This document shows positions 9,900 through 19,919 of a DNA stretch of 40,622 bases, piece by piece. The DNA is from a virus. Taxonomy: Duplodnaviria; Heunggongvirae; Uroviricota; Caudoviricetes. The number at the start of each line of letters is the position of its first letter. The first letter of the stretch is position 1. The stretch spans positions 1 through 40,622 of the IMG/VR virus record IMGVR_UViG_2671180275_000009, one strand, 5' to 3'. Position numbers and translations under genes: made by a program. The notes under the pieces were generated by a model. The model was given only the letters and a program-made list of their open reading frames with translations, did not search any database and was not told where the DNA came from.

Positions 9900-10228
9900 T
9901 AACGACATTATTTGTTGAATCAGATGAACCCCTTGTGTGTGCCGCCGGAATGCCGGTCTGTGGCGGAACGCTGACCGGTGTTTATTTCGGGGATTTGCGC
10001 GGTTATCCCTGGCATTCACTGGATGACGCATTTCCGCCTGATATGGAGGCTGTCGTGCTGATTGTTCAGTATGGTGACCAACAGGAACTGCGCATCGGCC
10101 ATATGGGGTATGAAGGCTTTTTTATTGATGAAGAAACCGGAGCCTGCCTTGAAGATGAGGACGGACAGGTGACGCACTGGTGCCATATTTCAGCTTTACC
10201 GGAATTACAGGAGACGCCCAATGGATGA
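9896..10228 (+). CDS. Hypothetical protein (DUF551-like C-terminus)
   Basis: 110-aa acidic ORF ending ...VTHWCHISALPEL. Confidence 0.45.
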   Translation: MITTLFVESDEPLVCAAGMPVCGGTLTGVYFGDLRGYPWHSLDDAFPPDMEAVVLIVQYGDQQELRIGHMGYEGFFIDEETGACLEDEDGQVTHWCHISALPELQETPNG

Positions 10229-16249: not shown

Positions 16250-17838
16250 TGGGACGCATAATTGATCTTGACGGAAAACCTTTCTCCTTTGACCCGGAGA
16301 TGCAGAGTGCCGTGCTGGATATTCCGCAGATTGCCAGCCGTTATATTGAACATCCGGCCTCGGGTATCACCCCGAACCGGGCGGCGCAGTGCCTTCGCGG
16401 GGCTGAACATGGCGATCTGATTGCCCAGTCCGATCTGGCGGCTGACATTGAAGAAAAGGACACCCACCTTTTTGCAGAGCTGGGCAAGCGACGTCTTGCC
16501 ATTCAGGGCGTGCCCTGGAGTATTGAGCCGCCACCGAACGCCAGCGCGAATGAGAAAAAGGACGCGGAAATGCTCGACGAATATCTGCATTCCGCCGACT
16601 GGTTTGATGCCATGCTGTTTGATGCTACCGATGCCATCCTGAAGGGCTATTCCTGTATGGAGATTGAGCACGGGATGCTCGGTAAAATGCACATCATCCG
16701 CGCCATCCGCTGGCGTGACAGCGGGCATTTCTGCCTTAACCCGGATGATTTGAGCGAACTGCGGCTGCGTGACGGCAGCCATGCCGGGGTGGCGTTTCAG
16801 CCCTTTGGCTGGATAGTGCATCAGTCACGTTCACGCACCGGTTACGGCGGCGCAACGGGGCTTGTCAGAACGCTTATCTGGCCGTTCATTTTCAAAAACT
16901 ATTCCGTGCGCGATCTGGCTGAATTTCTGGAAGTGTACGGCCTGCCGATGAAGGTCGGTAAATACCCGTCCGGGGCAACACCGGAGCAGAAAAGCGCCCT
17001 GATGCGGGCGGTGATGGATATCGGGCGACGTACAGGCGGGATCATCCCGGCCGGGATGTCGCTGGAGTTTCAGGCGGCAGCGAACGGTCAGGCCGATCCG
17101 TTTGAAACCATGATTTCGTGGGGGGAGCGTTCCATCTCCAAAGCTATCCTCGGCGGCACGCTGACCACGGAAGCCGGAGACAAAGGCGCGCGCTCGCTGG
17201 GTGAAGTGCATAACGAGGTGCGCCGGGAAATCAGGGATTCTGATTTACGTCAGCTGGCTGCCACGCTGAACCGCGATCTGGTGTATCCGCTGTACGCCCT
17301 GAACACCACGCACACTATTGATATCCGCCGTCTGCCACGTATCTGCTTCCAGACAAAAGAACCGGGGGATATCACCAAAATCACCAGTGCGGTGATGCAG
17401 CTCAGTACGGGGATGGATATTTCTGATCCCTGGATACGTGAGCAGACGGGTATTCCGCAGCCCACGCCCGGCGAAGCCATCTTCCGTGTCCGTCAGAGTG
17501 GCAATGAACCGGCTCAGACTGACAGGGAAATACCACCGGAAACACAGGAAAAGACAGAGCAGACGGCGCTGTCAGCCCGAGTGCCGGAAGCGAAAAGCAG
17601 CCCCCGTGATGAACTGGACGACATGGGGGATGCGGTGCCTGCCCGCCGGTTACAGGAGGCCATCGACCCGCTACTGGAGCCGGTCATTGATGCCATCAGA
17701 ACGCGGGGGCTGGCGGATGCGCTGGCAGACCTGCCCGCCCTTTACCGTGAAATGGATGATTCCCGCCTGATGACGCTGCTCAGTGATGCCATGTTTGCTG
17801 CGGAAATGAAGGGGATGCTGGATGGCACAGGGGATTGA
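16240..17838 (+). CDS. Portal protein (Mu gp29 family)
   Basis: 532-aa ORF following the terminase; GTG start. Confidence 0.7.
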   Translation: MLVVGRIIDLDGKPFSFDPEMQSAVLDIPQIASRYIEHPASGITPNRAAQCLRGAEHGDLIAQSDLAADIEEKDTHLFAELGKRRLAIQGVPWSIEPPPNASANEKKDAEMLDEYLHSADWFDAMLFDATDAILKGYSCMEIEHGMLGKMHIIRAIRWRDSGHFCLNPDDLSELRLRDGSHAGVAFQPFGWIVHQSRSRTGYGGATGLVRTLIWPFIFKNYSVRDLAEFLEVYGLPMKVGKYPSGATPEQKSALMRAVMDIGRRTGGIIPAGMSLEFQAAANGQADPFETMISWGERSISKAILGGTLTTEAGDKGARSLGEVHNEVRREIRDSDLRQLAATLNRDLVYPLYALNTTHTIDIRRLPRICFQTKEPGDITKITSAVMQLSTGMDISDPWIREQTGIPQPTPGEAIFRVRQSGNEPAQTDREIPPETQEKTEQTALSARVPEAKSSPRDELDDMGDAVPARRLQEAIDPLLEPVIDAIRTRGLADALADLPALYREMDDSRLMTLLSDAMFAAEMKGMLDGTGD

Positions 17839-19147
17839 TCTGGGTTATGCCGCCACGCTTCCCTCAAAAGAGGCGGTGGCATACTTCCGCGCCAAAGGGG
17901 CGCATATCAGCTGGAACTGGTTCGAAACAGACGCGGATGTTCATGCCCGTTCATTCACGGCGGCAAAAGTGGCACGCCTGGACGTACTGACCACACTACA
18001 GGCGGAAGTGCAGCGTGCTGTTGATGAGGGGATTTCACAGAAAGCATTTATTCGCACGCTGACACCCCGCCTGCAAAAGCTGGGATGGTGGGGAAAACAG
18101 ATTGTGGTGGACAGTGCCGGTAACGCGGAAGAAGTGCAGCTGGGCAGTCCCCGCCGTCTGGCGCTGATTTACAACGTGAACACCCGTGTGGCTTACAATG
18201 CCGGGCGTTACACGCAGATGATGAACAACACGGACACGCATCCGTTCTGGCAGTATGTGGCGGTGATGGACAGCCGCACCCGCCCGGCACATTCCGCCTT
18301 TAACGGGCTGGTATTCCGCTATGACGATCCGTTCTGGAATACACACTACCCGCCCAATGGCTGGAACTGCCGCTGCCGTGTCCGGCCATTATCTCAGGCC
18401 CGTCTGGATGCAATGGGGTTATCCGTTTCATCCGGTCAGGATCATCTCTCCACCCGCAATGTTGAGGCTGGCGTGGATAAGCAGACCGGAGAAGTCAGAG
18501 AAATGCCGGTGACCACATATTCAGATGGCACCAGAACCATGACACCGGATGTGGGCTGGTCATATAACCCCGGTTCGGCGGCGTTCGGCACAGACCAGGC
18601 GCTGATCCGTAAACTGATCGAGGTGAAAAGCCCGGCGTTACGGGAAATGGTGGTTCAGGAGATGAACAACAGCCCGGAGCGGCAGCTGGCGTTCCGCATC
18701 TGGGCAAAAAACATCATGAAGACCCGGCGAGGTGGTCACGATATCCGCACGCTGGGCTTTATGACCGAAAGTATTGCGCAGGCGGTGGAAAGCCGGACGG
18801 GAACGCCACCGGCCCGCCTGCTGGCGATGAGCGGTAAAAATGTGCTCCATGCGGACAGCGTGAAACATCAGAATGACGGCATTGCCCTGACGCCGGAGGA
18901 TTTCGGGCGATTACCGGCAATGCTGGCCGCGCCTGATGCCGTGCTGTGGGATCATGTCCATCAGAATCTGCTTTACATCACTGAAACCCGTGACGGAACG
19001 GCAAAGATTGCCGTCAATGCGCCTTATAGTGTGAAACGTCAGCCGGATAAGCTGGATGTGGTGATTAATGCCTACAGAGTCAAAAAGGAGGCATTACTTG
19101 ATGATCTGCGCGGTGGAAAGCTGGAATTACTGGAGGGTGAATTGTAG
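17822..19147 (+). CDS. Head morphogenesis protein (Mu F / gp30-like)
   Basis: 441-aa ORF after portal, order-based assignment. Confidence 0.65.
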   Translation: MAQGIDLGYAATLPSKEAVAYFRAKGAHISWNWFETDADVHARSFTAAKVARLDVLTTLQAEVQRAVDEGISQKAFIRTLTPRLQKLGWWGKQIVVDSAGNAEEVQLGSPRRLALIYNVNTRVAYNAGRYTQMMNNTDTHPFWQYVAVMDSRTRPAHSAFNGLVFRYDDPFWNTHYPPNGWNCRCRVRPLSQARLDAMGLSVSSGQDHLSTRNVEAGVDKQTGEVREMPVTTYSDGTRTMTPDVGWSYNPGSAAFGTDQALIRKLIEVKSPALREMVVQEMNNSPERQLAFRIWAKNIMKTRRGGHDIRTLGFMTESIAQAVESRTGTPPARLLAMSGKNVLHADSVKHQNDGIALTPEDFGRLPAMLAAPDAVLWDHVHQNLLYITETRDGTAKIAVNAPYSVKRQPDKLDVVINAYRVKKEALLDDLRGGKLELLEGEL

Positions 19148-19231
19148 GTCGGTGGCGGGGGTCGAACCCGCATAAACATCCCTCAGGAAAAAACCATCAG
19201 GCGCCGCTTTACCAGTTAAGAGTACACCGAC
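19148..19231 (-). ncRNA. tRNA-like structure (acceptor stem plus T-arm) between the F-like and G-like genes
   Basis: On the minus strand: GTCGGTG ... GCGGG TTCGACC CCCGC CACCGAC, i.e. a perfect 7-bp acceptor stem and 5-bp T-stem with a TTCGA-type loop; D and anticodon arms are not canonical. Confidence 0.25.
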
Positions 19232-19269
19232 CTGCTTTTATTTTAACCAGGTAGTTTCACGGAGGCAAT

Positions 19270-19743
19270 ATGTCATCCATTGATGCCGCTGTCGTTGTTG
19301 ACGTTACGCGTCTCCAGCGGGTGTTTGCCCGGCTTCAGTTTGTGGGGGGCGGAAAAGACCTGGCCCGCAGTGTGGCGTCCAGCCTTCTGTCATCCTCAGA
19401 AATGGCGTTTGAACAGGAAAAAGAGCCGGACGGCGAACGCTGGCATGACTGGTCAGATCCTTACCGCAAGTGGCGTACCCGTAAGGGATACACGCCCGGC
19501 AAAATCCTGACGCTGAACGGCGATCTGGCCCGCCGCCTGACCACGGATTATGGCGATACCTGGGCGCTGATTGGATCAAATGAACCTTATGCAGCCATTC
19601 ATCAGTGGGGTGGCCTGCCTGGTATGCCACCGGGACTGGCAGCCATTGGCGCACGTCCGTATATGGGCTTTGATGAGGTGGCTGAACAGGAGATCATGGA
19701 CGAAATCAGAAAACGCTTTAAAAAGGCCACAGAAACGCCTTAA
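19270..19743 (+). CDS. Mu G (gp31)-like virion protein
   Basis: 157-aa ORF in the Mu G position. Confidence 0.5.
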   Translation: MSSIDAAVVVDVTRLQRVFARLQFVGGGKDLARSVASSLLSSSEMAFEQEKEPDGERWHDWSDPYRKWRTRKGYTPGKILTLNGDLARRLTTDYGDTWALIGSNEPYAAIHQWGGLPGMPPGLAAIGARPYMGFDEVAEQEIMDEIRKRFKKATETP

Positions 19744-19919
19744 TTGTTTAAGGTATGCAAATGCATTACCTTACCCCCTTCAGGCGCGTGTCGTGATTTT
19801 CTAACCTGTATTTAACGGGCTTTAAAATCTGCGTGAAGCGCCTTTGTATTTTTCCCCTGAAAGCACTTCCTGAAATCCCGCAAAACCCGCCCTGAAAATT
19901 CCCGGCTTATGCTGCCGGA

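What the first reader, a model, noticed from the sequence alone, without database searches (positions are those of the whole stretch)
19148..19232. tRNA-like structure abutting the stop codon of the F-like gene
Read on the minus strand the sequence has a perfect 7-bp acceptor stem (GTCGGTG / CACCGAC) and a T-arm GCGGG-TTCGACC-CCCGC in the correct relative positions, but the intervening 53 nt do not form canonical D and anticodon arms and there is no encoded CCA. It may be a degenerate or unusual tRNA, a tRNA-like regulatory RNA, or simply a hairpin terminator with a coincidental distant complement.
Basis: seen in the sequence. Interest (0 to 1): 0.45.

Follow-up and report, generated by a model that had tools for sequence, protein, structure and literature searches.

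The report
Anticodon-less tRNA mimic beside phage RNase
Between two head genes of a Mu-like prophage, on the opposite strand, lies a gene for a tRNA-shaped RNA with no anticodon loop; in related phages it occurs only where the adjacent head protein keeps an apparently intact RNA-cutting domain, so it may be an RNA decoy or antidote for that enzyme.

Summary
Window 19147-19232 (minus strand) encodes an 86-nt cloverleaf. It has an 8-bp terminal helix, a canonical D arm and a canonical T arm. Where the anticodon arm should be there is an irregular hairpin. NCBI's PGAP pipeline already labels it 'tRNA-OTHER' in 229 complete E. coli genomes, but I found no paper describing it.

It is a conserved RNA gene, not a relic. 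Across 28 distinct homologues, 96% of cells pair, 14 of 20 pairs show compensatory changes, and G.U outnumbers A.C 51:2, which fixes the strand. A sigma70-like promoter precedes it in nearly every lineage. The central arm is hypervariable but is always a hairpin, usually closed by a 3-4-nt loop, so the RNA cannot decode.

The new finding is a genetic coupling. The RNA abuts the end of head protein F, whose C-terminal MuF-C domain is a predicted BECR-fold RNase. In 76 informative F loci, the RNA is present in 50 of 50 that carry the motif H-x-D/N-S-x-K/R-H and absent from 26 of 26 that lack it, phage Mu included. MuF-C and the RNA together form a hypervariable cassette. A satellite-like island carries arrays of 2-3 copies.

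Best model (about 0.4): an uncleavable tRNA pseudo-substrate, acting as RNA immunity for the F RNase.

The parts
19147..19232 (-). Gene for an 86-nt anticodon-less tRNA-like RNA. RNA position -1 is base 19232; position 73 is base 19147.
   Evidence: Rfam tRNA model matched end to end, 27.4 bits. Own covariance model R1 scores 93.7 bits, and this is the only hit in the window. PGAP annotates 'tRNA-OTHER' at the same bases in identical E. coli genomes. Covariation.
19225..19232 (-). 5' strand of the 8-bp terminal (acceptor-like) helix, G-1 plus GUCGGUG.
   Evidence: Seven of its 8 pairs show compensatory changes in the family. The -1:73 pair occurs as GC, AU, GU or UA.
19206..19221 (-). D arm: UCUU / AACUGGUA / AAGC. 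The loop bases A14, G18, G19 and A21 are conserved.
   Evidence: Rfam alignment; invariant columns in alignment A2; D-stem pairs covary.
19172..19205 (-). Central arm in place of the anticodon arm. Its base helix GGC(G)/(U)GUU is conserved; beyond that lies a hypervariable hairpin, here with a U6 loop.
   Evidence: The three base-helix pairs covary, for example CG 15 against UA 13. The distal part differs in sequence and length in every lineage but always folds as a hairpin, closed by a 3-4-nt loop in most homologues. In this window and a few relatives the loop is longer and the stem irregular.
19155..19171 (-). T arm: GCGGG / UUCGACC / CCCGC.
   Evidence: 100% of cells pair and two pairs carry compensatory changes. 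The loop UUCGA is near-invariant.
19147..19154 (-). 3' strand of the terminal helix, CACCGAC plus C73. No CCA follows. Base 19147 is also the G of the F stop codon TAG.
19240..19268 (-). Sigma70-like promoter TTGCCT-17-TAAAAT, ending 7 nt before the RNA's first base. Its -35 hexamer overlaps the ribosome-binding site and ATG of G on the other strand.
   Evidence: It is the only promoter-like site found in 18900-19500. Equivalent -35/-10 pairs with different sequences lie 4-12 nt upstream of the RNA in nearly all lineages.
17822..19147 (+). F-like head morphogenesis / minor head protein (441 aa): Phage_Mu_F domain plus MuF_C domain.
   Evidence: Pfam PF04233 (residues 58-187) and PF18819 (residues 347-422); TIGR01641.
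18860..19087 (+). MuF-C domain (residues 347-422), a predicted phage BECR-fold RNase (PBECR).
18848..18868 (+). Motif H343-A-D-S-V-K-H349, the putative catalytic histidines in the N-terminal helix of MuF-C.
   Evidence: Translation. Present in all 50 loci that carry the RNA and absent from all 26 complete loci that lack it.
19064..19078 (+). Motif I-N-A-Y-R on the last long beta-strand of MuF-C.
   Evidence: Translation. Kept as [IV]-N-x-[YWF]-[KR] in most RNA-bearing loci and altered in almost all loci without the RNA; L174/L175 keep A-Y-R.
19270..19743 (+). G-like virion morphogenesis protein, the downstream neighbour. Its start region overlaps the RNA's promoter.
   Evidence: Pfam PF05069.

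Best explanation
SHOWN. Window 19147-19232 (minus strand) is a conserved gene for a small RNA that folds like a tRNA, with an 8-bp acceptor-like helix, a D arm, a T arm and all the elbow-forming bases. The anticodon stem-loop is replaced by a hairpin, in most homologues closed by a 3-4-nt loop, and the discriminator base is paired. The gene has its own sigma70-type promoter pointing against the late operon. It occurs only next to F proteins whose C-terminal MuF-C (PBECR, BECR-fold RNase) domain keeps the H-x-D/N-S-x-K/R-H motif.

INFERRED. The F protein is a virion-borne RNase, possibly one that cuts tRNAs. The tRNA-like RNA is its matching uncleavable pseudo-substrate. It offers the tRNA body but lacks both classic tRNase cutting sites, the anticodon loop and the single-stranded 3' NCCA end. 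By binding the RNase domain it would neutralise it in the lysogen and in the producing cell. That would make it an RNA immunity factor, comparable to a type III antitoxin or a colicin immunity protein. Copies on other mobile elements would act as orphan immunity.
For: (1) It is a real structured RNA on the minus strand. In 28 distinct sequences, 96.4% of cells pair, 14 of 20 pairs carry compensatory changes, 0 of 500 shuffles match, and slid controls pair at 38-55%. G.U outnumbers A.C 51:2. U8, A14, G18, G19, A21 and UUCGA are conserved.

(2) It is its own transcription unit. Promoter-like -35/-10 pairs lie 4-12 nt upstream in nearly all lineages despite different sequences, and terminator hairpins follow the RNA where there is room (L177, L180, L193).

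(3) It cannot decode. Central loops are mostly 3-4 nt (UUCG, UCCG, GCAA, GAGA, triloops), with a few longer irregular ones and never a 7-nt anticodon loop. ARAGORN finds nothing.

(4) It is coupled to the RNase domain. Of 80 F loci with 42-100% identity, the RNA sits directly 3' of the F stop in 50. All 50 carry the His motif. All 26 complete loci without the RNA lack the motif. Parsimony gives 2-9 independent co-transitions, including the nested case L189-191(+) against L194-198(-).

(5) The prediction held on phages outside that set. Pasteurella phage Pmp9 has the motif and an unannotated RNA (59.4 bits). Mu and Shewanella MuM16-1 have neither, and in both F and G overlap or nearly abut.

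(6) An RNA-first scan gave the same answer. All 23 true members with readable context are convergent with a motif-bearing MuF gene; in 17 the N-terminal MuF signature is also detectable.

(8) It has a cassette signature. Against near-identical phages, divergence is confined to about 18900-19260, which is MuF-C plus the RNA.

(9) No protein immunity gene fits in the 122-nt F-G gap.

(10) A satellite-like island carries arrays of 2-3 copies that match the three E. coli types. At least 10 of the 14 island-bearing genomes also carry a Mu-like prophage, against 4% overall.
Against: No expression, binding or RNase activity data exist for this RNA or this domain. The His residues are called 'catalytic' only by analogy.

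The RNA and the motif lie about 300 nt apart, so inheritance of the cassette as one block could produce much of the correlation. On the MuF-C tree only 2 transitions are required.

Colicins D and E5 recognise mainly the anticodon stem-loop, which this RNA lacks. A decoy therefore requires an enzyme that reads the tRNA body.

Co-divergence of the RNA with MuF-C beyond that with its neighbours is modest: partial r is 0.35 against 0.12 for G, and not distinguishable from the F N-terminus.

One recombination breakpoint falls inside the RNA (window against L002).
Confidence: 0.4

Rival explanations
1. Partner rather than inhibitor. The tRNA-like RNA is a substrate, cofactor or cargo of the MuF-C domain. 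The domain might process it, use it as a scaffold or guide, or carry it into the capsid with F so that it reaches the next host.
For: This reading predicts the same presence/absence coupling and the same cassette structure. Iyer et al. suggest that MuF-C may bind RNA even where it is inactive. The gene sits inside the head-morphogenesis module.
Against: In Mu and other lineages the domain persists without the RNA, so domain folding and head assembly do not need it. Closed loops (UUCG, GNRA) and a closed terminal helix look built to resist cleavage. The orphan arrays on an island with no annotated MuF gene fit a decoy better than a cofactor.
Confidence: 0.25
2. Stand-alone tRNA mimic aimed at the host. 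The RNA acts as a decoy or sponge for host tRNA-binding factors such as RNase P, CCA-adding enzyme, EF-Tu, tRNA-targeting defence nucleases or acceptor-end toxins. Its association with MuF-C would then reflect linkage and shared ancestry only.
For: An intact L-shape and its own promoter suggest action in trans in the lysogen. Copies exist outside the F-G spacer on a satellite-like island. The MuF-C tree needs only 2 transitions.
Against: The correlation is 50/50 and 26/26, and both out-of-sample predictions held. Loss of the RNA always comes with loss of residues about 300 nt away, and does so in lineages nested among RNA-bearing ones. A decoy for anticodon nucleases would need an anticodon loop.
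Confidence: 0.17
3. Cis-antisense regulator. Transcription from the minus-strand promoter runs into the 3' end of F, or the RNA pairs with the F-G spacer of the late mRNA. Either way it would lower F or G expression, as in type I toxin-antitoxin systems or by transcriptional interference, with the cloverleaf serving only as a stabiliser.
For: The promoter is convergent with the late operon and overlaps the ribosome-binding site and ATG of G. In the E. coli type no terminator separates the RNA from F.
Against: Lineages with a 20-28-nt gap and a terminator directly after the RNA do not read into F. Antisense action does not require conserved tRNA tertiary bases or compensatory stem changes. The island copies have no antisense partner. 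No complementary target beyond chance was found elsewhere in the window.
Confidence: 0.1
4. Decaying tRNA pseudogene, or a chance hairpin or terminator.
For: ARAGORN finds nothing and the Rfam score is below the gathering threshold in the window. The single-sequence fold z-score is only -1.7.
Against: The element keeps its position, strand and structure from E. coli to Pasteurella, and all helices carry compensatory changes. One genuinely degenerate copy (L235) shows what decay looks like.
Confidence: 0.02

Closest known systems
Canonical tRNA (Rfam RF00005); annotated by PGAP as 'tRNA-OTHER' or, inconsistently, 'tRNA-Tyr'
   Same: Cloverleaf with acceptor-like, D and T arms. U8, A14, G18, G19, A21 and T-loop UUCGA are conserved. 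Some members score above Rfam's gathering threshold, from 34 to 45 bits.
   Different: There is no 7-nt anticodon loop in any member. The central arm is a hairpin, usually closed by a 3-4-nt loop, of variable length. Position 73 is paired with -1, giving an 8-bp helix. No CCA is encoded. An extra base lies between A9 and the D stem. Many members fall below the threshold or go undetected.
tRNA-like domains of tmRNA and of bacterial Y RNA YrlA (from my own knowledge of these families)
   Same: These are non-decoding RNAs that copy the tRNA acceptor/T-arm 'top half' and elbow.
   Different: In tmRNA and YrlA the tRNA-like part is embedded in a larger RNA, tmRNA has no D stem, and both work with dedicated partners (SmpB, Rsr). 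This RNA is a free-standing ~80-nt cloverleaf. Rfam's tmRNA model gives only 15-18 bits against a gathering score of 47.
P1/P7 C4 and P4 CI antisense immunity RNAs (from my own knowledge)
   Same: Small, stable, phage-encoded RNAs with variable loops that set specificity.
   Different: No Rfam hit to the C4 family at any threshold. No complementary target was found in the phage. C4 and CI lack tRNA D-loop and T-loop sequence.
Type III toxin-antitoxin systems such as ToxIN (RNA antitoxin bound to an endoRNase toxin; from my own knowledge)
   Same: The proposed logic is the same: a structured RNA encoded next to an RNase neutralises it by direct binding. Toxin and RNA are lost together.
   Different: ToxI is a tandem repeat upstream of the toxin on the same strand, is processed by the toxin, and forms pseudoknots. 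Here the RNA is a single tRNA mimic, convergent and downstream. The enzyme is a domain of a virion protein with a different fold (BECR, not the ToxN fold).
MuF polymorphic toxins / polyvalent MuF proteins with downstream immunity genes (Jamet 2017, PMC5576092; Iyer 2017, PMC5512222), and colicin D with its tRNA-mimicking immunity protein ImmD (the latter from my own knowledge)
   Same: A MuF N-terminal domain is fused to a variable C-terminal effector. The gene directly downstream would provide immunity. The C-terminus plus its neighbour form a hypervariable cassette. The enzyme is a BECR-fold RNase.
   Different: Known immunity factors are proteins. Here the 122-nt gap has no coding capacity and holds an RNA gene on the opposite strand.

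Membership tests
tRNA (RF00005 / functional decoding tRNA) | Covariance-model score at or above the curated gathering score (29 bits) | tested here: inconclusive
   The window copy scores 27.4 bits, below the threshold. Homologues score 34.2, 37.3, 37.9 and 45.5 bits, and several are not detected at all.
tRNA (RF00005 / functional decoding tRNA) | Anticodon arm: a 5-bp stem closing a 7-nt loop with U33 and an anticodon | tested here: not met
   Absent from every family member inspected. Loops are mostly 3-4 nt, a few longer and irregular. ARAGORN finds 0 genes.
tRNA (RF00005 / functional decoding tRNA) | 7-bp acceptor stem with an unpaired discriminator base and a 3' CCA, encoded or added | tested here: not met
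   Position 73 pairs with -1 and the pair covaries. No CCA is encoded. Post-transcriptional CCA addition cannot be tested here.
tRNA (RF00005 / functional decoding tRNA) | D-loop and T-loop bases that form the elbow (G18, G19, U54, U55, C56, A58) | tested here: met
   These columns are invariant or near-invariant in A2 and A4.
C4 / CI phage antisense RNAs (RF01695) | Match to the family covariance model, and loops complementary to a target in the same phage | tested here: not met
   No Rfam hit at gathering or at E<=10. Only chance-level 10-11-mers are shared with the rest of the window.
tmRNA tRNA-like domain (RF00023) | Match to the tmRNA model, and a tag-peptide reading frame | tested here: not met
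   15-18 bits against a gathering score of 47. ARAGORN finds no tmRNA.
Type III toxin-antitoxin | RNA antitoxin made of tandem repeats upstream of, and co-transcribed with, the endoRNase toxin | tested here: not met
   The phage carries a single copy that is convergent with and downstream of F.
Type III toxin-antitoxin | The RNA binds the toxin protein directly and inhibits it | not testable with these tools
   Needs biochemistry. Here it is inferred only from co-occurrence.
MuF_C / PBECR RNase domain (for the F protein) | Pfam PF18819 match above the gathering score | tested here: met
   30.2 bits against a cut-off of 27.6, residues 347-422.
MuF_C / PBECR RNase domain (for the F protein) | BECR fold: an N-terminal helix followed by a 4-5-stranded sheet | tested here: inconclusive
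MuF_C / PBECR RNase domain (for the F protein) | [quoted passage not shown] | tested here: met
   H343 and H349 are present in the window and absent from Mu and all other loci without the RNA. Catalysis itself was not tested.
Polymorphic toxin-immunity cassette | A variable C-terminal toxin domain and its adjacent immunity gene diverge or are exchanged together in an otherwise conserved locus | tested here: met
   Identity falls to 51-85% only across about 18900-19260, between flanks of 95-100%.
Polymorphic toxin-immunity cassette | The immunity factor is a protein that binds its cognate toxin | tested here: not met
   There is no ORF in the 122-nt gap. The only gene there is the RNA.

The most novel reading that the evidence does not exclude
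A previously unrecognised class of RNA immunity. A free-standing tRNA mimic, stripped of the anticodon loop and of the single-stranded 3' end, is the dedicated antidote to a BECR-fold RNase domain that Mu-like phages carry in their capsids on head protein F. The RNase and the RNA co-diversify as a cassette. A satellite-like island collects arrays of 'orphan' mimics of several specificities, to disarm the RNases of incoming or resident Mu-like phages.
Probability: 0.35. Interest if true: 0.9.

Novelty: new variant of a known kind. Interest (0 to 1): 0.78.

Why it matters
If the coupling is functional, several things follow.

- The MuF-C/PBECR domain would gain its first partner molecule. The domain is widespread in phage head and 'polyvalent' proteins but has never been characterised.
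- Its target class would be suggested: tRNA-shaped RNA.
- RNA would join the list of immunity factors for polymorphic-toxin-like effectors, which so far are all proteins.
- Hundreds of 'tRNA-OTHER' and stray 'tRNA-Tyr' annotations in E. coli, Salmonella and related genomes would be explained.
- The difference between phage Mu itself (inactive domain, no RNA) and its relatives would become a ready-made natural experiment.

The RNA is small and the domain can be expressed alone, so the model can be tested directly.

Tried and rejected
- ARAGORN on the window and on family loci found nothing. Rfam at gathering thresholds found nothing in the window.
- Antisense target search. I looked for sequence complementary or identical to the element elsewhere in the 40-kb window. 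Only three 11-mers turned up, about the chance number of ~1.5, so a C4/CI-like model was dropped.
- tRNA-His identity (G-1:C73). Rejected as a family feature, because -1:73 simply covaries (GC, AU, GU, UA) and the island copies have U-1:A73.
- Class II tRNA with a long variable arm, tRNA-Sec, or an intron-containing tRNA. No anticodon stem-loop can be drawn in any variant.
- att-site mimic. Mu-like phages transpose, and in the island the direct repeat (CGTATGTACAC) lies about 100 nt outside the array.
- Isotype of origin from the D-loop motif. Ordinary phage tRNAs with the same D loop are His, Lys, Asn, Met, Trp and Val, which is uninformative.
- The single genome-contig scan gave only 2 loci.
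- Foldseek against PDB with the full-length model found nothing. A profile search of PDB sequences found nothing.
- The partial Mantel test gave only weak support for co-evolution of the RNA with MuF-C.
- Seven full-text literature searches found no description of the element. One preprint on BECR RNases could not be opened.
- Covariance-model hits below about 45 bits can be real tRNAs: L233 is tRNA-Asn and L240 is tRNA-Ser.

Full report
WHAT IS THERE

The window is a Mu-like prophage of E. coli. It is 100% identical to NZ_CP116067, and related copies occur in 229 of 5,426 complete genomes. The flagged bases lie in the 122-nt gap between the F-like head-morphogenesis gene (17822-19147, +) and the G-like virion-morphogenesis gene (19270-19743, +).

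Read on the minus strand, 19232..19147 gives G-1, GUCGGUG, UAC, UCUU-AACUGGUA-AAGC, a 34-nt central segment, GCGGG-UUCGACC-CCCGC, CACCGAC and C73. ARAGORN calls nothing and Rfam at gathering thresholds calls nothing. A local Rfam search, however, aligns the tRNA model end to end at 27.4 bits (gathering score 29), with a canonical D arm and T arm and 25 nt where the 13-nt anticodon core should be.

The statement that no D arm exists is wrong. Only the anticodon arm is missing. NCBI's PGAP pipeline already annotates these same bases as 'tRNA-OTHER' on the minus strand.

IT IS A CONSERVED RNA GENE

I collected the F-G spacer from relatives: Edwardsiella, IMG/VR contigs, metagenomes and E. coli genomes. 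The element is at the same place and on the same strand in all of them.

- A hand-checked alignment of 20 distinct sequences gives 94% paired cells and 10 of 20 pairs with changes on both sides.
- With a covariance model built from that alignment (R1) I recovered members next to F proteins as low as 45% identical.
- On 28 distinct sequences, 96.4% of cells pair and 14 of 20 pairs are compensatory. None of 500 shuffles reaches the observed score. Sliding the partners drops pairing to 38-55%. This alignment was fitted to the model, which favours the structure, but the MAFFT alignment A2 gives the same picture.
- G.U pairs outnumber A.C mismatches 51 to 2, so the minus-strand transcript is the folded molecule.
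- The bases that build the tRNA elbow and core (U8, A14, G18, G19, A21, UUCGA) are invariant or nearly so.
- The pair -1:73 covaries (GC 13, AU 9, GU 2, UA 1). The terminal helix is therefore 8 bp, without a free discriminator base, and no CCA is encoded.

THE CENTRAL ARM

Its three basal pairs covary. Beyond them, sequence and length change in almost every lineage, and total RNA length ranges from 69 to 102 nt. Each variant still folds into a hairpin. Most are closed by UUCG, UCCG, UCAA, GCAA, GAGA, UCAU, AUUU or a triloop; a few, including the window, have a longer or irregular loop. No variant has a 5-bp stem with a 7-nt loop, so this RNA cannot read a codon.

ITS OWN TRANSCRIPTION UNIT (INFERRED)

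The only sigma70-like site in 18900-19500 is TTGCCT-17-TAAAAT on the minus strand, ending 7 nt before G-1. Equivalent -35/-10 pairs with quite different sequences lie 4-12 nt upstream of the RNA in nearly all lineages. Where the RNA does not abut F (L177, L180, L193), a terminator-like hairpin follows it. Expression itself has not been shown.

THE LINK TO THE F PROTEIN

F carries Phage_Mu_F (PF04233) and, at residues 347-422, MuF_C (PF18819). Iyer et al. [quoted passage not shown] They predict that Mu's own copy is inactive while orthologues are active, and they note that MuF proteins are head components likely to be delivered into the host.

Phage Mu has no F-G gap at all, because the genes overlap, and it has no tRNA-like element. 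Aligning F C-termini showed that RNA-bearing phages share L-x-H-[AIST]-[DN]-S-x-[KR]-H (H343 and H349 in the window) and [IV]-N-x-[YWF]-[KR]. Mu and L034 have lost both.

I then took 80 F loci from IMG/VR spanning 42-100% identity.

- R1 finds the RNA in 50 of them, always on the minus strand directly after the F stop. All 50 have the His motif.
- All 26 complete loci without the RNA lack the motif.
- The four remaining loci are uninformative. L139, L140 and L185 are cut by contig ends. L134 has a rearranged F 3' end.

Parsimony requires 9 state changes on a tree of the F N-terminal 320 residues. It requires only 2 on a tree of the MuF-C domain with the motif columns masked. One case is cleanly nested: L189-191(+) against L194-198(-).

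Two tests outside that set agree.

- Among isolated phages, Pasteurella phage Pmp9 has LQHANSEKH and a 59.4-bit R1 hit at its F stop, unannotated in the record. Shewanella phage MuM16-1 has neither and only a 9-nt F-G gap.
- A scan of IMG/VR with an RNA-only pattern returned 26 true members. All 23 with readable context are convergent with a motif-bearing MuF gene, and in 17 of them the N-terminal MuF signature is also detectable. Of the other hits, two were ordinary tRNAs and one (L235) is a degenerate copy elsewhere in a Mu-like phage.

FOLD OF MuF-C

CASSETTE BEHAVIOUR

Against three close relatives, flanks are 95-100% identical while identity falls to 51-85% only between about 18900 and 19260. 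That stretch is the part of MuF-C after the His motif, plus the RNA, plus its promoter spacer. This is the pattern of polymorphic toxin-immunity cassettes. One breakpoint (window against L002) falls inside the RNA's central arm. A partial Mantel test gives the RNA core a somewhat tighter link to MuF-C than to G (0.35 against 0.12) but does not separate it from the F N-terminus.

COPIES OUTSIDE THE PHAGE

An ~11-kb island lies between yicC and dinD. It encodes an integrase, an AntA/B protein, Icd-like proteins, toprim and DUF927 proteins, PerC and Mor, and it ends with a same-strand array of 2-3 tRNA-like genes. PGAP labels them 'tRNA-OTHER' or 'tRNA-Tyr'. The three copies correspond to the three main types found in E. 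coli and Salmonella Mu-like phages. The island occurs in 14 of 5,426 genomes, and at least 10 of those 14 also carry a Mu-like prophage, against a 4% background. Its att repeat lies about 100 nt outside the array.

INTERPRETATION

Shown:
- a conserved, tRNA-shaped, non-decoding RNA gene on the minus strand;
- a strict co-occurrence with motif-bearing MuF-C;
- a shared hypervariable cassette.

Inferred: the RNA is an uncleavable tRNA pseudo-substrate that neutralises the F RNase. Three points favour this. Both classical tRNase target sites, the anticodon loop and the free 3' end, have been closed off. No protein immunity gene fits in the gap. RNase motif and RNA are lost together, as expected for a toxin and its antidote. 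Orphan arrays on a satellite-like island fit immunity collecting.

The main caveats are these. There are no expression or activity data. Physical linkage could account for much of the correlation. The fold evidence is weak. Colicin-type enzymes recognise the anticodon arm, which this RNA lacks.

The rivals are: an RNA partner or cargo of the domain; a host-directed tRNA decoy linked to F only by ancestry; and cis-antisense control of F or G. The null reading of a pseudogene or chance hairpin is excluded by the covariation.

NOVELTY

Seven full-text searches found no description of this RNA or of any RNA partner for MuF-C. The element is known only as an unexplained automatic annotation. I class it as a new variant of a known kind, a tRNA mimic. 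The proposed RNase-immunity role, if confirmed, would be new in kind.

Noticed in passing
L113:1131-1433; L117:10131-10433 (NZ_AP045179.1 75531-75833); also L104, L107, L110: An ~11-kb integrase/AntA/Icd/toprim-DUF927/PerC/Mor island between yicC and dinD ends in a tandem array of 2-3 tRNA-like genes of different types. It is present in 14 of 5,426 E. coli genomes, and at least 10 of those also carry a Mu-like prophage. It is possibly a satellite of Mu-like phages.
   Followed up: partly
L199:1900-1979 (OR544140.1, Pasteurella phage Pmp9, about 10105-10184): A published phage genome carries an unannotated member of the RNA family (59.4 bits) directly after its F gene.
   Followed up: yes
L235:13257-13331: A degenerate copy with broken acceptor and T stems lies about 2 kb downstream of the major head gene of another Mu-like phage, away from F. 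It may be a decaying or relocated copy.
   Followed up: partly
L117:10351-10433 and E. coli hits H36-H40: PGAP labels the third array copy 'tRNA-Tyr', apparently because GUA happens to occur in its 4-6-nt loop. The same family is called 'tRNA-OTHER' elsewhere and is sometimes missed altogether. The automatic annotation is inconsistent.
   Followed up: partly
window 18900-18940: A second small divergence patch (75% identity between 100% flanks) lies inside MuF-C just after the His motif, at residues ~360-373. It is separate from the main variable block at 19060-19220.
   Followed up: no
window 19744-19919: This is the 176-nt G-I intergenic region. In phage Mu the record marks the strong gyrase cut site directly after G (NC_000929 17879-17880), so this spacer may hold the equivalent site and the late promoter for I. 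Not examined.
   Followed up: no
L089:10313-10398 and relatives L090, L093, L094, L096, L101, L103, L111 (soil metagenomes): 86-nt tRNA-like genes with a 7-bp central stem and a 15-nt loop. ARAGORN calls near-identical copies tRNA-Asp or tRNA-Asn after single-base changes. Their context was not examined.
   Followed up: no
protein P0011: A 199-aa protein joins PF11985 to a motif-bearing MuF_C domain with no MuF N-terminal domain, so the RNase-like domain also occurs in another architecture. Whether a tRNA-like gene follows it was not checked.
   Followed up: no
L113:1775-1790: A LexA-box-like sequence, CTGTATATAAATACAG, lies upstream of dinD just beyond the island end. This is expected for dinD and was noted only as a landmark.
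   Followed up: no
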